From: a virus
Taxonomy: Duplodnaviria > Heunggongvirae > Uroviricota > Caudoviricetes
Virus record (IMG/VR): IMGVR_UViG_2711768060_000007
Coordinates: 1-6,337 of that record
DNA: 6,337 bases
Strand: one strand, 5' to 3'
Part shown: positions 285-6,268 of the stretch, in pieces
Position numbering within the stretch: the stretch's first letter is position 1
Layout of the letters: each line of letters starts with the position of its first letter
Notes under the pieces: model-generated
What the model saw: the letters and a program-made list of their open reading frames with translations, nothing else
Told to the model about the DNA's origin: nothing
The model's database searches: none
Position numbers and translations under genes: made by a program

Positions 285-827
285 TCAGGTATTTTGTGGC
301 TGCTCAGGCCAGCTAATATTGTTGTATGTGGTCTTATCCGTAATAGCGCTGAAATCCATCGCCTGCAGCGATTTCGCGTAAATGCGGTACGCTTTCAGCT
401 TCTCCCTGTCTTCGTCACTGATTAATCCCGGCAGCAGGTCTTTTTCCCACTCGCTGGTCATGATGCTGACCTGTTTTAACAGGGCATCGCGCTCATCTTC
501 CGCTTTAAGTTTGTAGTCGAAGACAAATTTATCGTCGCGGTAAAACCAGTAACCAGGCACGGTAATACGGCGATTAGCGGTAATATCAGGAACTTCAATA
601 ACACTGGCGTTACGGGGTTCAATGCCTGTCACATCCTTACCGACCCACACCACGCGCCCGTCTCCGGTGTAAACCATTTTTATGGTGTCACTGGCAAAAT
701 TCTTCTGTTCTTCATACCAGTTTTTTCCGTCTTCCGAAAAAAGCCAGGTGACACCATATTGTTTTGTCAGCTGATATTGTTCCGCGGTTTTCGGATTACC
801 CGCAGTAATATTTTTTAAATGTAACAT
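285..827 (-). CDS. G: tail fiber assembly chaperone (P2 gpG / Tfa family)
   Basis: 180-aa ORF. N-terminus MLHLKNITAGNPKTAEQYQLTKQYGVTWLFSEDGKNWYEEQKNF closely resembles P2 gpG as recalled. C-terminus ...KLKAYRIYAKSLQAMDFS...ISWPEQP matches the Tfa C-terminal pattern. Start ATG (827..825) is 2 nt after the upstream fiber stop TAA (832..830), indicating translational coupling. Confidence 0.85.
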   Translation of the reverse strand: MLHLKNITAGNPKTAEQYQLTKQYGVTWLFSEDGKNWYEEQKNFASDTIKMVYTGDGRVVWVGKDVTGIEPRNASVIEVPDITANRRITVPGYWFYRDDKFVFDYKLKAEDERDALLKQVSIMTSEWEKDLLPGLISDEDREKLKAYRIYAKSLQAMDFSAITDKTTYNNISWPEQPQNT

Positions 828-829
828 TG

Positions 830-1303
830 TTAAACACTCGCCACGTTATACCAGGTGCCATTAATCAGTTTCTGAAGCGGACGGTAATACACGCCGCCGA
901 TGTTATCTGCCGAATTACTTCCGGTTTCCTGCACATTAATACCGGATAACCCGTAGCCTGCAGGTGAGCGAAATGTCCAGGAAATTTCATTTCCCCCAGG
1001 GTTATAGAACATTTCGGAACCATAACGCACATCCTGCACGCCGCCATTTCGCTGCTGATAACGGGCATCGAAATTTCCATAGTTTGATGGGGTCATCTGT
1101 CCGTTTACAGCGAATGTGATACTGCCATCGGTATTTCTCTGGCTGTAAAAATGCCAGCCGGAATCATCACCAAGCTCTGCAACTACAGGTCGGGATGAAT
1201 TACCCCATAAATTAAACGTTGCGTTTTTCGTGGAGTTGTTGGCGCTGGATAACGTGAATTTTTTAGCATTTCCGGCCTGAATATTTTTTAACGCTATCGC
1301 CAC
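830..1303 (-). CDS. H: tail fiber protein, C-terminal (tip) portion; 3' piece of a frame-shifted P2 H-like fiber gene
   Basis: 157-aa ORF from GTG 1303: (M/V)AIALKNIQAGNAKKFTLSSANNSTKNATFNLWGNSSRPVVAELGDDSGWHFYSQRNTDGSITFAVNGQ...INGTWYNVASV, very like the P2 H C-terminus as recalled. The same frame is open upstream to a TAA at 1483..1481 and there encodes ...GYIGVQNALGGNSIAFGDNDTGIKQNGDGILDVYANGQHVFRFQNG, which is also fiber-like. The real coding extent in this frame is therefore about 830..1480. Confidence 0.75.
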   Translation of the reverse strand: MAIALKNIQAGNAKKFTLSSANNSTKNATFNLWGNSSRPVVAELGDDSGWHFYSQRNTDGSITFAVNGQMTPSNYGNFDARYQQRNGGVQDVRYGSEMFYNPGGNEISWTFRSPAGYGLSGINVQETGSNSADNIGGVYYRPLQKLINGTWYNVASV

Positions 1304-1371
1304 ACCATTCTGGAAACGAAATACATGCTGTCCATTCGCATAAACATCCAGAATGCCGTCGCCGTTTTGTT

Positions 1372-2259
1372 TTATACCTGTATCGTTATCCCCGAAAGCA
1401 ATTGAGTTTCCGCCCAGCGCGTTCTGAACGCCGATATACCCAGCGCACCATTGACCTGAGAACCGCCGCCAACAGACACTTTATGCGACATGGATATTTC
1501 ACCCGTCCGCAGATTAATAGTGAACGGTCGAAGTGGACCAATATCGCCATTCTCGCCCTGACCTTCACTGGTAGGGATAAGATGCAGGCACTCTTCCGAA
1601 CGACGAAAAATAAGGCCAAAAGCGTCGTTGAAAATCCTCAGCGCATTAACGCCACGGATTTTCAGTTCCCCGGTCATGGTGTCACCATCACGCTGAACGG
1701 CATTTTTTGCCTTGTCCACCGTGGGTTTTAATCCGAGGTTTTCAACAGCCTCATCCTTGTCTTCCACATCCGAAAGATTCTTTTTTCGTTGCAGATAGCG
1801 TCTGTCTCCGATTTCCTGAGTAATAATGGCCCTGTTCGGGTCAATTTCCACCACCACACTTTCCGCATGCGTCAGTGTCAGCACCAGTGTGATAATCACT
1901 TCTTTCACAATGGAATCCGTCTGGGCAGGCAGATACGTATCCGGATAGCGCCCGTAAGCAATCAGCGTACCTGAACGACTGCGCAGCCCCAGTTCACGCA
2001 GGATTTTTCCCGGATATTTTTTGCAGTCAATCACCACCTGACCACTGATCATCCCTTCGTCACTGCCGGCTGTGGAAAAGGGTTCACTGCCAAACGGCCC
2101 ATACAACTGCGTGACCGCCGCCATATCATCCGGTGTATCCGGCAGGTTTCCGTCACCACCGTCACCCAGTACCACATCTGACAGAACAACCGTTTTACCG
2201 GCCTGCCAGGCGGCTTCAATCTCCCTGGCCCCGGCCAGCGTCAGGACAAGTCCGGACAT
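1372..2259 (-). CDS. H: tail fiber protein, N-terminal and shaft portion; 5' piece of a frame-shifted P2 H-like fiber gene
   Basis: 295-aa ORF. ATG 2259..2257 is preceded by GAGGAGG (2270..2264) with 4-nt spacing. N-terminus MSGLVLTLAGAREIEAAWQAGKTVVLSDVVLGDGGDGNLPDTPDD...ILRELGLRSRSGTLIAYGRY and internal ...KPTVDKAKNAVQRDGDTMTGEL match conserved P2 H-type motifs. The last ~20 codons before the stop at 1374..1372 (..ISAFRTRWAETQLLSGITIQV) look like out-of-frame readthrough. Confidence 0.8.
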   Translation of the reverse strand: MSGLVLTLAGAREIEAAWQAGKTVVLSDVVLGDGGDGNLPDTPDDMAAVTQLYGPFGSEPFSTAGSDEGMISGQVVIDCKKYPGKILRELGLRSRSGTLIAYGRYPDTYLPAQTDSIVKEVIITLVLTLTHAESVVVEIDPNRAIITQEIGDRRYLQRKKNLSDVEDKDEAVENLGLKPTVDKAKNAVQRDGDTMTGELKIRGVNALRIFNDAFGLIFRRSEECLHLIPTSEGQGENGDIGPLRPFTINLRTGEISMSHKVSVGGGSQVNGALGISAFRTRWAETQLLSGITIQV

Positions 2260-2456
2260 ACAGCCTCCTCTGTGGTCAGACCAAATACACGGACAAGGCG
2301 GTCACGGAGTTCCGGGCTGACCTCTTTTTTCTCTTCATCAATGTCTCCGTCGTTAATCACCAGAACCCCGGCCCGGGCCAGTGTCTGCAGGTACGCAACG
2401 AAACAACTGTCCGTCTGGCAGAAATGAATTAACGTCTTCATCTGAACGAACGTCAT
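2241..2456 (-). CDS. hypothetical small acidic protein (71 aa), function unknown
   Basis: ATG 2456..2454 lies 2 nt after the upstream TAA (2461..2459) and has GGAG 6 nt upstream. Its stop TGA (2243..2241) overlaps the first codons of the fiber gene. It exactly fills the I-H gap with coupling at both ends. Translation: MTFVQMKTLIHFCQTDSCFVAYLQTLARAGVLVINDGDIDEEKKEVSPELRDRLVRVFGLTTEEAVCPDLS. No family recognised. The ORF track gives a longer 88-aa version from ATG 2507, which overlaps the upstream gene by 49 nt. Confidence 0.4.
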   Translation of the reverse strand: MTFVQMKTLIHFCQTDSCFVAYLQTLARAGVLVINDGDIDEEKKEVSPELRDRLVRVFGLTTEEAVCPDLS

Positions 2457-2458
2457 GG

Positions 2459-5400
2459 TTAACTCCATCCTGTCGGCAATTCGCCGTAATCGTCCAGTGC
2501 TGTGCACTGAAACAGTGTTCTTGCATGGATGACCTGCTCAGGCAGTCTGCTGATAAATGACAGCCCGTGCCCGCGCAGCTTCACACACCCTTCAAACGCG
2601 CTTCTTACATCCGTCACCGTACTGAAAAAATCCGGGCTGAAAATCGCCTCCACAATACTTTCCAGTGATACACATCTGTCAAAGAGGTGCCCGGCATCCG
2701 ATACCGCTGTACCGGAAAGCAAGCCTGTTTCCGCCTGTTTCAGTGATGTGCACTGGCTGAACGCATAGCTGAAATCCGTGGCCAGACTGTTACCGGAAAA
2801 CAGATCCGCGGGGACCACCTCCAGACGGGAACATTTCATAAACACCTTACTGAACGTGGTGACGTGCAGGTTGTGACGGAACAGCCCTGCAGGCACTGAG
2901 ACCAGTCCGGTTTCAGAAAACGCACTCAGGAAGACGGATATCAGCGGACAGGCAGCAAACAGCGACTCCGGTACGGTCTGCAGCGCTGTACATCCCGCAA
3001 AAGCACTCTCCACCGTAACCAGCAGCGGATTGTGCTCAAACACACCGGGCGGAACAGTGGTCAGTGATGTGCAGGAATAAAAAATACCCCTGGCGGTCGT
3101 CAGTTTCGTCATGGCTCCAAACAGGTCGTCCGGGAGGCTTTCCAGCGAAATGCAGCCACTGAACGTCATCCAGAGATAGGTGACTCCGGGAACATTGCCA
3201 AACAGCATCAGCGGCAGGGTGCGCAGAGCGCGGCAGTTCCTGAATACCTCCAGTAGCTCTTTAATTTCTGAGCACCCGTCAAATAAGCGGGCTCCAACAG
3301 AGCGCAGCGAGACACAGTCGACGAACAGCCCCCGGACCTGTGTCAGGGCGGTGCAGTCACTGAATACACGTTCCCCCACGCGCAGCAGACCGGAACACGC
3401 CATAAAGGCGTTATACACGTTGATGAGATTTTCAGCCCCTCTGAACGCACCGTCAGGGATCTCCGTCAGTGACTCGCAGTTACGAAATGCAGAATGAAGG
3501 GTCGTCAGCTCACGGCAGTCACCAAAATCCGGCATTACGCTCAGCACCCGGCAGTTATAAAATGCCGAAGCAAAGTCTTTTGCACCGGTACAGCCTGCCA
3601 GAAGCCCCTCTCCGGTGCTTTGCAGTGATTTATCACCGTAAAATGCGAAAGAAAAATCTCCTGCCCCCGTGCAGTTACGGAACAGATGGTCTCCGGTGGT
3701 ACGCAGCGCCGTACAGTTTCTGAACACACTGTTGAAGGTGGTGACGCTGGTCAGATTTTCAAACAGGCCATCCGGGAGGGACTGTAATGCACTGCAGTCC
3801 ATAAATGCCTCCCGGAATGTCGTTGAGCGGATGCACGGGCTGAACATCCCGGAAGGTACCGCCGTCAGTGACGTACATTTGCTGAATGTCCGGGAAAAAT
3901 CCCCGCCAGGCACATGGCTGAAGATACCTCCGGGAATGGTCGCCAGTCGACTGCAGGAATAAAACGCCTCCCTGAACTGCGTGGCACTGACACAGCCAGT
4001 AAACAGCCCCTCGCCGATACTGGTCAGTGAGGTACAGTTATAAAAAAGCCTGCCAAAATCCTTGGCCGATGTGCAGCCTGAAAACAGGTCTCGCCCCACC
4101 GTCTGCAACGCGCTGCAGCCATAAAATGCACTGTCAAACGTACCCGCGTTCTCCAGACCACGGAATAAGCCGTCAGGGACAGCTGACAGCGAGGTACAAT
4201 TACTGAAGACGCCTCTGAAACTCCGGGCCTCAGTGAAGCCGGCGAAGAGTGTGGCGGGAACCGTCTCCAGTGCGGTACAACCAGTAAACAGGCTGTAACA
4301 GTCCCGTACCCCCTGCAGTCCCTTAAAGGCGTCGTCATGTACAGTGACCAGGTTTCGCTGTCCACTGACAAACGACGCTAATGAACTCACTGTTCCCGTA
4401 TAACGAACCAGCTCCGTGACCGGATTCAGGGCGGCGGAGAACGCGTCTGCTGTGCGTTGCAGCGTGGCCTGCCCGGGGTTTTTTACGGTAATAAGATATT
4501 CGGTACCCTCCGTCAGCGGGCGTGTGGCGTATACACCATACAGCACACCGGAATTTGTACTCCTGAGCGCATACTCTCTGTTATCACCGTCACCGTAATT
4601 AATCAGGAAATCAGCGTTTTCAGGCCGGACAAAAAATAAGGGCCGGTCAGCAGACTCCACCCGGGAGACAAACGCCAGCACCGGAACCACCTTCACGCTG
4701 ACCGTGCAACTGATACCGTTGAGGGTGGTCACGGTAACCTGGCATTCTCCGTACGTCTGTCCCGTCAGTAGAAAACCGCCTTCCGCCAGGGTGGCTGTGA
4801 CACAACCAGGCTCTGCAACCCGGACAGTGAAACTTTTGTCTTCCGCCTCCGGTGGCAGGATAGTGACGCCGATAAAACGACATTCCCCGGGCTCCAGCCA
4901 GACTTCCGTTTCCGTCAGGGTGATACCGGTCGGAAAAATGCGGCTCCTTATATATTCGGTGGCACAGGCGTAACCGGCTGCATAAACCGGGCCTGCACTG
5001 CGACCATAAACGTGAACCGAAAACCATGAGCGCAGATTTTTCGCACGAAGCACCGCATGCTTCAGATCCTGATGATCATTCATCAGCACCGGTAAATCCT
5101 TCTGCTCCACGTTCAGACGAAAGGTATACGGCTCCCCGGGTGGGGTCTGCTCATACCACTCAACAATCTGCGACCGGAAGGGACTGTCAGCCAGCGATGC
5201 CATCAGCGCCGCTTTAGTCCCTCTGTGGCGGTGGATGTAAGCAGCACGTTTTATCGCAGACCTTTTTTCCGTCTCCGTCCAGTGTTCATTCCAGGTATCC
5301 ACCGCCATTTCCCAGGCCAGCCATGGCAGCAATTCAGCAGGGCATAAATCGGGATTTTTCACATAGCGGATCAGGCAGACCGCTATGTCTGACAGCATAT

Positions 5401-5476
5401 CTCCGGCGACACAGTCCACCACCCGCTCTGCCCGGCGGGCACTGACCGGCAGTATGCTCCTGATATCGTCATTCAT
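2459..5476 (-). CDS. baseplate wedge protein I (P2 gpI family) with large C-terminal extension: Ig-like domain plus ~22 BspA-type leucine-rich repeats
   Basis: Uninterrupted 1005-codon ORF. ATG 5476..5474 has GGAG 7 nt upstream and overlaps the end of the J reading frame (ATGAATGA). Residues 1-~180 (4937..5476) carry the gpI signature ...NPDLCPAELLPWLAWEMAVDTWNEHWTETEKRSAIKRAAYIHRHRGTKAAL.... Residues ~183-265 (4682..4930) look like a Big_2-type Ig fold (..FTVRVAEPGCVTATLAEGGFLLTGQTYGECQVTVTTLNGISCTVSVKV). Residues ~382-990 (2507..4333) are tandem 26-27-aa units, e.g. FSNCTSLSAVPDGLFRGLENAGTFDSA, FYGCSALQTVGRDLFSGCTSAKDFGRL, FMDCSALQSLPDGLFENLTSVTTFNSV. Confidence 0.9.
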   Translation of the reverse strand: MNDDIRSILPVSARRAERVVDCVAGDMLSDIAVCLIRYVKNPDLCPAELLPWLAWEMAVDTWNEHWTETEKRSAIKRAAYIHRHRGTKAALMASLADSPFRSQIVEWYEQTPPGEPYTFRLNVEQKDLPVLMNDHQDLKHAVLRAKNLRSWFSVHVYGRSAGPVYAAGYACATEYIRSRIFPTGITLTETEVWLEPGECRFIGVTILPPEAEDKSFTVRVAEPGCVTATLAEGGFLLTGQTYGECQVTVTTLNGISCTVSVKVVPVLAFVSRVESADRPLFFVRPENADFLINYGDGDNREYALRSTNSGVLYGVYATRPLTEGTEYLITVKNPGQATLQRTADAFSAALNPVTELVRYTGTVSSLASFVSGQRNLVTVHDDAFKGLQGVRDCYSLFTGCTALETVPATLFAGFTEARSFRGVFSNCTSLSAVPDGLFRGLENAGTFDSAFYGCSALQTVGRDLFSGCTSAKDFGRLFYNCTSLTSIGEGLFTGCVSATQFREAFYSCSRLATIPGGIFSHVPGGDFSRTFSKCTSLTAVPSGMFSPCIRSTTFREAFMDCSALQSLPDGLFENLTSVTTFNSVFRNCTALRTTGDHLFRNCTGAGDFSFAFYGDKSLQSTGEGLLAGCTGAKDFASAFYNCRVLSVMPDFGDCRELTTLHSAFRNCESLTEIPDGAFRGAENLINVYNAFMACSGLLRVGERVFSDCTALTQVRGLFVDCVSLRSVGARLFDGCSEIKELLEVFRNCRALRTLPLMLFGNVPGVTYLWMTFSGCISLESLPDDLFGAMTKLTTARGIFYSCTSLTTVPPGVFEHNPLLVTVESAFAGCTALQTVPESLFAACPLISVFLSAFSETGLVSVPAGLFRHNLHVTTFSKVFMKCSRLEVVPADLFSGNSLATDFSYAFSQCTSLKQAETGLLSGTAVSDAGHLFDRCVSLESIVEAIFSPDFFSTVTDVRSAFEGCVKLRGHGLSFISRLPEQVIHARTLFQCTALDDYGELPTGWS
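2507..4333 (-). repeat. in-frame tandem coding repeats (~78-81 nt period, ~22 units) encoding BspA-type leucine-rich repeats
   Basis: Protein-level periodicity F-x-x-C-x-x-L-x-x-[VI]-[PG]-x-x-L-F-(x)8-F-x-x-A, repeated about 22 times. Related motifs recur on the plus strand at roughly 80-nt multiples: gaacagccc near 2879 and 3323, aaacaggcc at 3761, aaacagcccc at 4001, aaacaggtc at 4082 (4081 begins aaaacaggtc), ggaataagcc at 4162. Units are diverged, not identical. Confidence 0.7.
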
Positions 5477-5575: not shown

Positions 5576-6268
5576 TCACCCCGGTCTGGTGCAGAGCACC
5601 ATAATATCCGCCACCACATCGTAGGGAATAATTTCTGCCGTCCGGACACTGACAAAATCCGTCAGGGGACGGGTTTCATCATCACAGACTGATGCTGCCA
5701 CCTTATCCAGCAGGGGTTGTGATGCAGTGCCATTTCCGGACCGGGATAACACATAAAGAAAAACCCGGCCTTCCTGCGAATGTGTTTCCGGCCCGTAAGC
5801 CTTCACATCCAGCACATCAGGATCAGCACTTTGTGCAAAATAGTGATACGCATTTTTCGCGCCGGCGGTGCTGAGCCGTGCCCATGACAACTGGATACGT
5901 TCGCGAAAAGCGTCATCATCTTCATACACCGCCGGCGTGGGCGGAATGGTGCTGTCGTCTGCCGGGGTAATAACCAGCCGCTGAACCTGATAATTCGCGC
6001 CAACCTGATCCAGGTCGTTCCCACCGGCACTGGCAAGCAGTACAGCACGGACAGCATCATTGATCTGCTGGCGCATCAGCGCCACCCGATAAGCCAGCGC
6101 CTCTGCCCATTTATATGCGGGATCAGATTCCACCAGAGCCGAAAACAACGTATCCAGCTCCTGATACTTCGCCACTATCTGAGTGACCAGCACAGCGGTG
6201 TCCGGCACATCCACTACATCCGGTACAGGTATCGCGGACAAATCAATAATGGCCTGAGACGTTGCCAA
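5576..6268 (-). CDS. J: baseplate assembly protein J (P2 gpJ family); ORF ends early, apparent frameshift near the 3' end
   Basis: 230-aa ORF from TTG 6268..6266, with GAGGAG 7 nt upstream and an in-frame TAA two codons before. Translation (M)ATSQAIIDLSAIPVPDVV...NDAVRAVLLASAGGNDLDQVGANYQVQRLVITPADDSTIPPTPAV... matches P2 gpJ motifs as recalled (IIDL..LP.PDVV; RAV.LA.AAGNDLD; L.ITPADDSTIPPTPAV). Stop TGA is at 5578..5576. The adjacent frame over 5469..5579 encodes VITVNLTSPASDIVPAMGQAPWCRRVTLNKVETTDE and ends overlapping the gene I start, which looks like the true J C-terminus. Confidence 0.8.
   Translation of the reverse strand: MATSQAIIDLSAIPVPDVVDVPDTAVLVTQIVAKYQELDTLFSALVESDPAYKWAEALAYRVALMRQQINDAVRAVLLASAGGNDLDQVGANYQVQRLVITPADDSTIPPTPAVYEDDDAFRERIQLSWARLSTAGAKNAYHYFAQSADPDVLDVKAYGPETHSQEGRVFLYVLSRSGNGTASQPLLDKVAASVCDDETRPLTDFVSVRTAEIIPYDVVADIMVLCTRPG

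What the first reader, a model, noticed from the sequence alone, without database searches (positions are those of the whole stretch)
2241..2456. Small coupled ORF inserted between baseplate gene I and the tail fiber gene
In P2 the fiber gene H follows I directly. Here a 71-codon ORF fills the gap exactly: its ATG is 2 nt after the gene I stop with GGAG upstream, and its stop overlaps the first codons of the fiber gene, so it would be co-translated with the tail genes. The product is small and acidic (..VINDGDIDEEKKEVSPELRDRLVRVFGLTTEEAV..) and I do not recognise the family. It could be a chaperone for the repeat-bearing protein or a moron-type cargo gene.
Basis: partly seen in the sequence, partly recalled or inferred. 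Interest (0 to 1): 0.45.

Follow-up and report, generated by a model that had tools for sequence, protein, structure and literature searches.

The report
Small partner gene of phage LRR tail module
The 71-codon ORF is a real, conserved phage gene that always sits just after one type of leucine-rich-repeat tail module, whichever tail that module is fused to, so it is most likely that module's assembly helper or cap rather than cargo or a chance ORF.

Summary
On the minus strand, a 71-codon ORF (ATG at 2456, stop 2243-2241) starts 2 nt after the stop of a 1005-aa gpI-LRR gene. GGAG lies 6 nt upstream, and the ORF overlaps the fibre gene start by 19 nt.

It is a genuine gene. It matches PHROG 11426 (function unknown) end to end at E 9e-39. 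Median dN/dS is about 0.12. AlphaFold2 gives a confident fold (pLDDT 89).

The family is narrow: 30 cluster representatives among 1.84 billion proteins, all stand-alone, 31-119 aa (most 60-80) and, in the 11 members measured, acidic.

In about 20 lineages and six tail architectures, every family member follows an LRR (BspA/PARCEL-type) module ending in a cap "L-x-D-Y-x2-[LI]-P-x2-W". The N-terminal anchor varies, and the downstream gene varies or is missing. Sister E. coli prophages share a near-identical gpJ, gpI anchor and fibre N-terminus but carry a different LRR cassette without that cap tail. They lack the ORF, as does P2.

So the LRR module and the small gene move together as a two-gene cassette. 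The best reading is a dedicated chaperone or capping partner of the LRR module, inferred from context and not demonstrated. The moron and chance-ORF readings are not supported.

No homologue of known function or fold was found. Phapecoctavirus LRR tail proteins lack the gene, so it is not universally required.

The parts
2241..2456 (-). Small ORF: 71 codons plus stop, acidic (pI 4.6). A member of PHROG 11426. Residues 1-59 form the conserved folded core. Residues 60-71 are poorly conserved, have low pLDDT, and overlap the fibre gene's ribosome-binding site and start codon.
2463..2466 (-). Shine-Dalgarno GGAG for the small ORF. It lies inside the last codons of gpI-LRR, 6 nt before the ATG.
   Evidence: sequence read directly
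2459..5476 (-). gpI-LRR gene, 1005 aa: a baseplate wedge protein I anchor fused to the LRR module. The stop is at 2461-2459.
5030..5452 (-). Tail_P2_I anchor domain (residues 9-149 of gpI-LRR). This part is shared with sister prophages that carry a different LRR cassette.
4724..4930 (-). Ig-like (Big_2-like) domain, residues 183-251. It marks the start of the swappable module. The Pfam match in the window's own protein is weak (E 0.042, below the gathering score); homologous modules in relatives score significantly.
4328..4681 (-). Pre-LRR beta domain, conserved across modules (motifs 'NYGDG' and 'EYLITVKN').
2816..4327 (-). Array of BspA/PARCEL-type leucine-rich repeats (F-x2-C-x2-L ... P-x2-LF units).
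2462..2815 (-). C-terminal cap of the LRR module, ending '...CTALDDYGELPTGWS'. A cap of this type precedes every family member whose upstream gene could be read.
2264..2269 (-). Shine-Dalgarno AGGAGG of the fibre gene. It is embedded in codons 63-65 of the small ORF.
   Evidence: sequence read directly
1372..2259 (-). Tail fibre gene, N-terminal part (295-aa ORF). In this window it is frameshifted by a 2-nt insertion at 1437-1438. The C-terminal part continues as the ORF at 830-1303.

Best explanation
The ORF encodes a small acidic protein of about 60 folded residues: helix, helix, beta-hairpin, helix. It is the cognate partner of a mobile LRR (BspA/PARCEL-type) module that phages graft onto baseplate or distal-tail proteins.

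The proposed sequence is as follows. The ORF is translated from the late tail operon immediately after the LRR protein, by coupling or re-initiation. It then acts on the freshly made LRR solenoid, most probably at its conserved C-terminal cap. There it serves either as a dedicated folding or assembly chaperone, analogous to a tail-fibre assembly protein encoded just downstream of its fibre, or as a small subunit that stays bound to the cap.

Shown here: the gene is real and under purifying selection; it is translationally coupled; it co-occurs exclusively with this LRR module; and it co-diverges with that module across unrelated tail architectures.

Inferred, not shown: physical binding, the binding site, and whether the protein is released (chaperone) or retained in the virion (cap or adaptor).
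For: 1. Real gene. It matches phrog_11426 end to end at E 8.7e-39. A profile search of 1.84e9 representatives finds only 30 relatives, all stand-alone small proteins of 31-119 aa, most 60-80. Median dN/dS is 0.12-0.13. The AlphaFold2 model has pLDDT 88.9.

2. Conserved coupling. In 69 Klebsiella-type and IMG/VR loci, the ORF start overlaps the stop of a ~1010-aa gene (ATGA) or lies 2-5 nt after it. Its end overlaps the next gene's start.

3. Constant upstream partner. In every context examined the preceding protein ends in the same LRR module and cap 'L-x-D-Y-x2-[LI]-P-x2-W/Y'. Its N-terminal anchor differs:
- Tail_P2_I (window, L001, L077, L079, L170);
- divergent Tail_P2_I (L005, L066, L169);
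- DUF2612/Phage_Wedge1 (L071, L156, L161);
- a split 263-aa anchor (L162, L167);
- two siphovirus-type contexts (L081, next to phiJL001_Gp84/BR0599 genes; L168, directly after the tape-measure gene).

4. Variable downstream gene. There are at least five different fibre or tail genes, and none at all in L080.

5. A natural swap. Prophages L155, L157 and L158 have gpJ 92-95% identical and fibre N-terminus 63-78% identical to the window, and a near-identical gpI N-terminal sequence on inspection. They carry a different LRR cassette ending '...LTD', and the fibre gene starts 10-16 nt after gpI. L159 is similar, though its gpI-LRR reading frame is interrupted. None of the four has the small ORF.

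6. Co-divergence. Pairwise identity of the small protein correlates with the LRR body (r = 0.85) and cap (0.83) more than with the fibre (0.64) or anchor (0.51). Where caps are at least 85% identical, the small proteins are at least 74% identical even when fibre and anchor identity falls to about 20%.

7. Operon position. There is no promoter or terminator of its own, and GC content matches the flanks.
Against: Adjacent genes co-diverge through linkage alone, so the correlation is supportive rather than decisive.

The partner is not universally needed by LRR tail modules. Phapecoctavirus ESCO5 gp226 has a related LRR region and a cap ending 'LSDYNNIPSGYK', yet no family member was detected in 148.9 of its 149.3 kb (best E 0.089). 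The type-B cassettes also do without it.

Most of the ~150 loci are close Klebsiella relatives. Independent evidence rests on about 20 lineages.
Confidence: 0.6

Rival explanations
1. The small protein is a fibre-related factor. In this reading it is an adaptor that docks the tail fibre onto the enlarged gpI, or a chaperone for the fibre N-terminus. It would be needed because the LRR extension displaces the normal gpI-fibre contact.
For: In the myovirus contexts the ORF lies immediately before the fibre gene and overlaps its start. Small-protein identity also correlates with the fibre N-terminus (r = 0.64).
Against: The downstream gene varies widely: P2-type fibre, Collar/Gp53-like fibre, unrelated 406-aa and 413-aa proteins, and DUF1833. 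In L080 nothing follows on that strand.

Sister prophages L155, L157 and L158 have long gpI-LRR proteins and 63-78% identical fibre N-termini but lack the ORF. An enlarged gpI therefore does not by itself call for it.

The correlation with the fibre is weaker than with the LRR module.
Confidence: 0.12
2. The ORF is a moron or cargo gene carried in the tail operon, with a function unrelated to virion assembly. Candidates are lysogenic conversion, superinfection exclusion or anti-defence.
For: The gene is small, of unknown function, has no homologue of known function, and is absent from P2 itself. Accessory genes are often found near tail fibre genes.
Against: There is no sigma-70-like promoter or intrinsic terminator flanking it, and the counts in the region do not exceed shuffled controls. 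GC content matches the neighbours.

Start and stop overlap the flanking structural genes in nearly all loci. It has no PADLOC match.

Its position is fixed relative to one protein module across six tail architectures. That is not how independently acquired cargo behaves.
Confidence: 0.07
3. The ORF is non-functional residue, an open frame kept open by chance or by constraints from the overlapping genes.
For: The last 19 nt overlap the fibre gene, and the last ~12 residues are poorly conserved with low pLDDT. The window's prophage is itself decaying, with J and H disrupted. L068 carries a truncated 52-aa copy.
Against: Median dN/dS is 0.12-0.13, measured on the first 58 codons, which overlap nothing.

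The frame is intact in about 150 loci that diverge down to 27-30% identity. The profile match is full length and the predicted fold is confident.
Confidence: 0.02

Closest known systems
PHROG 11426 (phage protein family of unknown function). GenBank example: YP_009882547.1, gp36 of Klebsiella phage ST16-OXA48phi5.4.
   Same: Full-length profile match (E 8.7e-39, residues 1-69 against positions 2-70 of 70). Identity to gp36 is 46%. gp36 lies at the same junction, between a 1008-aa 'tail protein I' and the tail collar fibre gene.
   Different: Nothing is known about the family's function. The window's E. coli variant is a divergent branch, 38-47% identical to the Klebsiella/Raoultella-type members aligned. 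Its link to the LRR module was not found described in the papers searched.
Tail fibre assembly proteins and receptor-binding-protein chaperones encoded just downstream of their substrate: P2 gpG, lambda Tfa, Mu U (Pfam Caudo_TAP, PF02413), T4 gp38 and gp57A.
   Same: The gene lies immediately 3' of the receptor-binding-type module it accompanies. It is co-transcribed and coupled with it, travels with it on horizontal exchange, and co-diverges with it. The window also has a classical Caudo_TAP gene (285-827) after its fibre, so the same logic would apply twice in one operon.
   Different: There is no sequence similarity. The protein is much smaller (71 aa against ~175), with a different predicted fold. 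Its presumed substrate is a monomeric LRR solenoid rather than a trimeric fibre tip (inference from established knowledge of P2/pyocin-type baseplates, not tested). Chaperone activity is untested.
BspA / PARCEL (DUF285, TIGR02167) repeat surface proteins. This is the family of the partner module, not of the small protein.
   Same: The upstream protein matches LRR_5, LRR_8 and TIGR02167, and relatives match DUF285. The repeat family is described in PMC2996958.
   Different: Here the repeats form the C-terminal extension of a phage baseplate protein, with a dedicated downstream partner gene. A 2020 phage paper stated that PARCEL domains had not been described in phages until then (PMC7765460).
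Winged-helix subdomains (PCI domain WH, MerR/Xre-type HTH).

Membership tests
PHROG 11426 | Significant full-length match to the family profile | tested here: met
   E 8.7e-39, 132 bits. Residues 1-69 match profile positions 2-70 of 70.
PHROG 11426 | Phage or prophage genomic context shared with other members | tested here: met
   Same junction as gp36 of Klebsiella phage ST16-OXA48phi5.4 and as 69 further loci.
Tail fibre assembly protein (Caudo_TAP, PF02413) | Sequence match to the Pfam or PHROG chaperone profiles | tested here: not met
   No Caudo_TAP hit for the small ORF or for any of the 28 family members. The true Caudo_TAP gene of the window is at 285-827.
Tail fibre assembly protein (Caudo_TAP, PF02413) | Encoded immediately downstream of, and exchanged together with, the receptor-binding module it serves | tested here: met
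   The gene always follows the LRR cap across six architectures and is absent when the cassette is replaced.
Tail fibre assembly protein (Caudo_TAP, PF02413) | Required for folding or assembly of its substrate and binds its C-terminal region | not testable with these tools
   Needs genetics or biochemistry, or a multimer prediction.
Moron (autonomous accessory gene in a late operon) | Own promoter and/or terminator, and composition unlike the flanks | tested here: not met
   There are no flanking signals: one promoter-like and one terminator-like site in 1 kb, neither adjacent to the ORF, and counts equal to shuffled controls. GC is 0.52-0.60 against 0.51-0.59 in the flanks.
Winged-helix DNA-binding proteins | Significant structural match and a basic DNA-recognition surface | tested here: not met
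GlgS / 'surface composition regulator' (the name one source gives to member P0102) | Match to the GlgS family profile | tested here: not met
   No GlgS Pfam hit for any of the 28 members at E of 0.1 or lower. The name is best taken as an automatic mis-annotation.
Anti-phage defence proteins (PADLOC-DB) | Match to any defence-system profile | tested here: not met
   No hits.

The most novel reading that the evidence does not exclude
The LRR module and the small gene form a portable two-gene host-recognition cassette that can be plugged onto unrelated tail anchors: P2-type gpI, DUF2612 wedge proteins and siphovirus distal-tail proteins. In this reading the 70-aa protein is a new class of LRR-specific chaperone or cap that recognises the conserved 'DY-x2-[LI]P-x2-W' C-terminal tail. 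It would be a solenoid-specific counterpart of the fibre-specific Tfa proteins.
Probability: 0.4. Interest if true: 0.55.

Novelty: new variant of a known kind. Interest (0 to 1): 0.42.

Why it matters
LRR/PARCEL-type extensions on phage baseplate proteins are common in Klebsiella, Escherichia and Serratia prophages, yet they are essentially uncharacterised.

If the small gene is the obligatory partner of this module, three things follow:
- Anyone expressing, engineering or swapping these putative receptor-binding modules (host-range engineering, tailocins, Klebsiella phage therapy) would need to move both genes together.
- The pair gives a simple genomic marker for one class of LRR tail module.
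- It provides a tractable test case for how a monomeric solenoid adhesin is assembled onto a tail.

If it is not required, the finding is only a better annotation for one PHROG of unknown function.

Tried and rejected
**Searches that found nothing**
- Pfam, NCBIfam, PADLOC and PDB sequence searches with the single protein, with all 28 members, or with a profile: nothing significant.
- Megablast of the region against complete E. coli genomes: no match. The element is present only in draft E. coli assemblies.
- Literature searches for LRR/BspA/PARCEL tail proteins, and for the Klebsiella phage that carries the homologue, found no functional work on either gene.

**Tools or queries that fell short**
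- The word-indexed protein search with the window protein alone returned only its own cluster. The family was opened up by querying with the Klebsiella homologue and by the exhaustive profile search.
- A first AlphaFold2 run on a shallow alignment gave pLDDT 68. It was superseded by the run on the diverse alignment.
- An alignment of the LRR cap was too divergent to seed a locus search. The pre-LRR beta domain was used instead.
- Seven loci without the small ORF (L093, L096, L102, L105, L106, L116, L118) were discarded as uninformative, because the contig ends before the LRR gene does.
- L083, a human-gut contig with a BspA-type LRR protein, turned out not to be a tail context and was dropped.

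**Ideas rejected**
- A second 68-aa ORF in L080/L081 (591-797) was suspected to be a paralogue, but its sequence is unrelated.
- The idea that the cap tail 'DY..P..W' strictly predicts the small gene was rejected. ESCO5 has the tail but not the gene.

Full report
**1. What is in the window**

All genes lie on the minus strand. In order, they are:

| Gene | Window coordinates | Notes |
|---|---|---|
| Baseplate J-like | 6268-5576 | |
| gpI-LRR | 5476-2459 | 1005 aa |
| The finding | 2456-2241 | 71 codons |
| Fibre, N-terminal ORF | 2259-1372 | |
| Fibre, C-terminal ORF | 1303-830 | |
| Caudo_TAP fibre-assembly gene | 827-285 | |

The 1005-aa protein has Tail_P2_I at residues 9-149, a weak Big_2-type Ig match, and BspA-type LRRs. 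NCBIfam also recognises the PARCEL repeat TIGR02167.

The gpI TAA stop is at 2461-2459, followed by two bases and then the ATG at 2456. GGAG lies at 2466-2463. The small ORF's stop is at 2243-2241, which is 19 nt past the fibre ATG (2259-2257). The fibre's own AGGAGG (2269-2264) is embedded in the small ORF's last codons. In P2 itself, gene I is 176 aa and H starts 10 nt after it.

**2. Is it a gene?**

Yes.
- It matches phrog_11426 (function unknown) over its whole length, E 8.7e-39.
- The identical protein occurs in draft E. coli genomes.
- A 46%-identical protein is annotated at the same junction in Klebsiella phage ST16-OXA48phi5.4, between a 1008-aa 'tail protein I' and the collar-fibre gene.
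- In 68 of the 69 related loci the frame is intact at 68-76 aa; in L068 it is cut to 52 aa. It usually overlaps the upstream stop as ATGA and overlaps the next gene's start.
- On the first 58 codons, which overlap no other gene, median dN/dS is 0.12-0.13 over 543 sequence pairs.
- An AlphaFold2 model built from a diverse alignment is confident, with pLDDT 88.9 and pTM 0.73. It shows helices at 3-9, 16-28 and 48-57, a hairpin at 39-46, and a short helix at 62-66 within the low-confidence tail (residues 61-71, block mean pLDDT 63 and 41).

**3. How big is the family, and what does it resemble?**

An exhaustive profile search of 1.84 billion representative proteins found only 30 relatives at E of 1e-3 or lower. 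All are stand-alone proteins of 31-119 aa, most of them 60-80 aa; the shortest and longest look like fragments or frameshifted calls. The domain was never found inside a long multidomain protein. The 11 family members measured are all acidic, with pI 4.0-4.7.

**4. What does it travel with?**

This is the informative part. I recovered genomic contexts for divergent members and read the flanking proteins.

In every case the preceding protein ends with the same module:
- an Ig-like domain;
- a beta domain with 'DYGDG...YTITVK' motifs;
- a long BspA/PARCEL LRR array;
- a conserved C-terminal cap ending 'L-x-D-Y-x2-[LI]-P-x2-W/Y'.

What lies in front of that module differs:

| Anchor type | Loci |
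|---|---|
| Canonical Tail_P2_I | window, Klebsiella phages, L077, L079, L170 |
| Divergent Tail_P2_I | L005, L066, L169 |
| DUF2612/Phage_Wedge1 wedge protein, in a different myovirus baseplate | L071, L156, L161 |
| Separate 263-aa anchor gene | L162, L167 |
| Siphovirus-type, beside phiJL001_Gp84/BR0599 genes | L081 |
| Siphovirus-type, directly after the tape-measure gene | L168 |

What lies behind the small gene also differs. It may be a P2-type fibre, a Collar/Big_2/Gp53-like fibre, other proteins, or DUF1833. In L080 nothing follows on that strand.

**5. The converse test**

I searched IMG/VR with the pre-LRR beta domain and scanned all loci with a family HMM. Every locus complete enough to judge had the small gene, with four exceptions: L155, L157, L158 and L159.

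These four are sister prophages of the window's element. For L155, L157 and L158, gpJ is 92-95% identical and the fibre N-terminus 63-78% identical to the window. The printed gpI N-terminal sequences are near-identical to the window's on inspection. L159 looks the same, but its gpI-LRR reading frame is interrupted (626-aa and 189-aa ORFs).

Their LRR cassette is a different type. The three intact proteins are 803-1049 aa and about 40-43% identical overall to the window's protein. They end '...C-x-[RL]-LTD', without the 'Y-x2-LP-x2-W' tail. The fibre gene starts 10-16 nt after gpI, as in P2.

So within one phage lineage, swapping the cassette removes the small gene while the anchor and fibre stay. 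This shows that the LRR module and the small gene are one exchange unit. It argues against a role tied to the gpI anchor or to the fibre.

**6. Co-divergence**

Among 65 non-redundant loci, pairwise identity of the small protein tracks the LRR body (r = 0.85) and cap (0.83) better than the fibre N-terminus (0.64) or the anchor (0.51). Where caps are at least 85% identical, small proteins are at least 74% identical even when fibre and anchor identity falls to about 20%. Because the genes are adjacent, linkage alone contributes to this result. I treat it as supportive only.

**7. Limits and counter-examples**

Phapecoctavirus ESCO5 gp226 is an 890-aa tail protein with a short related LRR region and a cap ending 'KLSDYNNIPSGYK'. 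The next gene is on the other strand. A maximum-sensitivity HMM scan of 148.9 of its 149.3 kb found no family member; the best E was 0.089. Together with the type-B cassettes, this shows the partner is not a universal requirement of LRR tail modules. It is specific to one clade of long modules found so far in Enterobacterales prophages (Escherichia, Klebsiella, Raoultella, Serratia) and in metagenomic contigs.

**8. Mechanism**

The most economical reading is that the small protein is the dedicated accessory of the LRR module. It would be made by coupled translation right after its substrate and would act on the C-terminal cap. It could be a folding or assembly chaperone, following the logic of gpG/Tfa after the fibre gene, which this operon also contains at 285-827. 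Alternatively it could be a small retained capping subunit. The two sub-variants cannot be separated with these tools.

- **Shown:** gene reality, coupling, exclusive co-occurrence, and cassette behaviour.
- **Inferred:** binding, binding site and activity.

The moron reading is disfavoured. There are no promoter or terminator signals, the composition is unremarkable, and the position is fixed relative to one module. The fibre-adaptor reading is disfavoured by the variable or absent downstream gene and by the sister prophages. The chance-ORF reading is refuted.

**9. State of this particular copy**

The window's prophage is damaged. Relative to a 99.7%-identical IMG/VR contig, it has a 2-nt insertion at 1437-1438. 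This splits the 475-aa fibre gene into the 295-aa and 157-aa ORFs. gpJ carries a 115-nt internal deletion at 5602|5603 and is truncated to 230 aa instead of 304. Other E. coli contigs encoding the identical small protein have J, I-LRR, fibre and Tfa intact. Either this copy is decaying or the assembly has errors. The small ORF and gpI-LRR are intact in it.

**10. Novelty and score**

The gene already exists in databases as a 'hypothetical protein' and as a PHROG of unknown function. What appears undescribed is its strict association with a mobile LRR/PARCEL tail module and the cassette behaviour. The literature searches found no functional work on either partner.

Functionally it would be a new variant of a familiar theme: a receptor-binding module with a cognate downstream helper. 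Interest is moderate. It offers a clean, testable hypothesis and a useful annotation, but no demonstrated new mechanism.

Noticed in passing
window 1437-1438 (fibre gene; ORFs 1372-2259 and 830-1303): A 2-nt 'TA' insertion, relative to a 99.7%-identical IMG/VR contig (L004), frameshifts the tail fibre gene. The gene is one intact 475-aa ORF in L004 and in L171, L172, L174 and L175. Either the gene is a pseudogene here or the assembly has an error.
   Followed up: yes
window 5602|5603 (gpJ, ORF 5576-6268): The baseplate J gene has an internal 115-nt deletion relative to L158, which shifts the frame. The product is 230 aa instead of the 304 aa seen in L171-L173, L175 and L176. With the fibre frameshift, this suggests the window's prophage is defective.
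   Followed up: yes
L155, L157, L158, L159 (IMG/VR E. coli-type prophages), gpI genes at about 4190-7350: This is a second, 'type-B' LRR cassette on the same gpI anchor. The intact proteins (L155, L157, L158) are 803-1049 aa and end '...LTD', and there is no downstream small gene. In L159 the gpI-LRR frame is interrupted (626 + 189 aa). LRR cassettes are evidently exchanged at the gpI anchor/Ig-domain boundary.
   Followed up: partly
L162 4043-7313 and L167 2147-4982: In two independent sources (IMG/VR and a Serratia fonticola genome), the anchor and the LRR module are separate ORFs of 263 aa and 811 or 666 aa. The break falls in the middle of the Big_2 Ig-like domain. This could be a conserved split, a programmed frameshift or a shared pseudogene.
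   Followed up: no
window 323-1786: The fibre C-terminus and the Tfa gene are 91-93% identical at the DNA level to phiP27, Rac-SA53 and, unexpectedly, Actinobacillus phage vB_Apl-pPE4. This shows mosaic exchange of the fibre tip and chaperone. An Actinobacillus phage carrying an E. coli-type fibre tip is odd.
   Followed up: no
L171-L173 and L077 (head-gene regions upstream of the tail genes): The P2-like tail module carrying this cassette is joined to non-P2 head genes. These are a ClpP-protease/capsid fusion with Phage_cement_2 in some loci, and lambda-type Phage_cap_E with Packaging_FI in others. The elements are mosaic, not Peduoviridae proper.
   Followed up: no
L082/L163: Escherichia phage ESCO5 gp226 (record 95378-98050): Phapecoctaviruses carry an 890-aa tail protein whose last ~250 residues are a short LRR array with the same kind of C-terminal cap. 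They have no detectable member of the small family anywhere in the genome.
   Followed up: yes
L016 (gpI ORF only 592 aa) and L068 (small ORF cut to 52 aa): Occasional Klebsiella-type loci show an interrupted gpI-LRR or a truncated small ORF. These are sporadic decay or assembly errors among otherwise intact copies.
   Followed up: no
P0102 (Klebsiella spallanzanii, locus L003): One UniRef entry names a family member 'Surface composition regulator' (GlgS). No member matches the GlgS profile, so the name looks like an automatic mis-annotation.
   Followed up: partly
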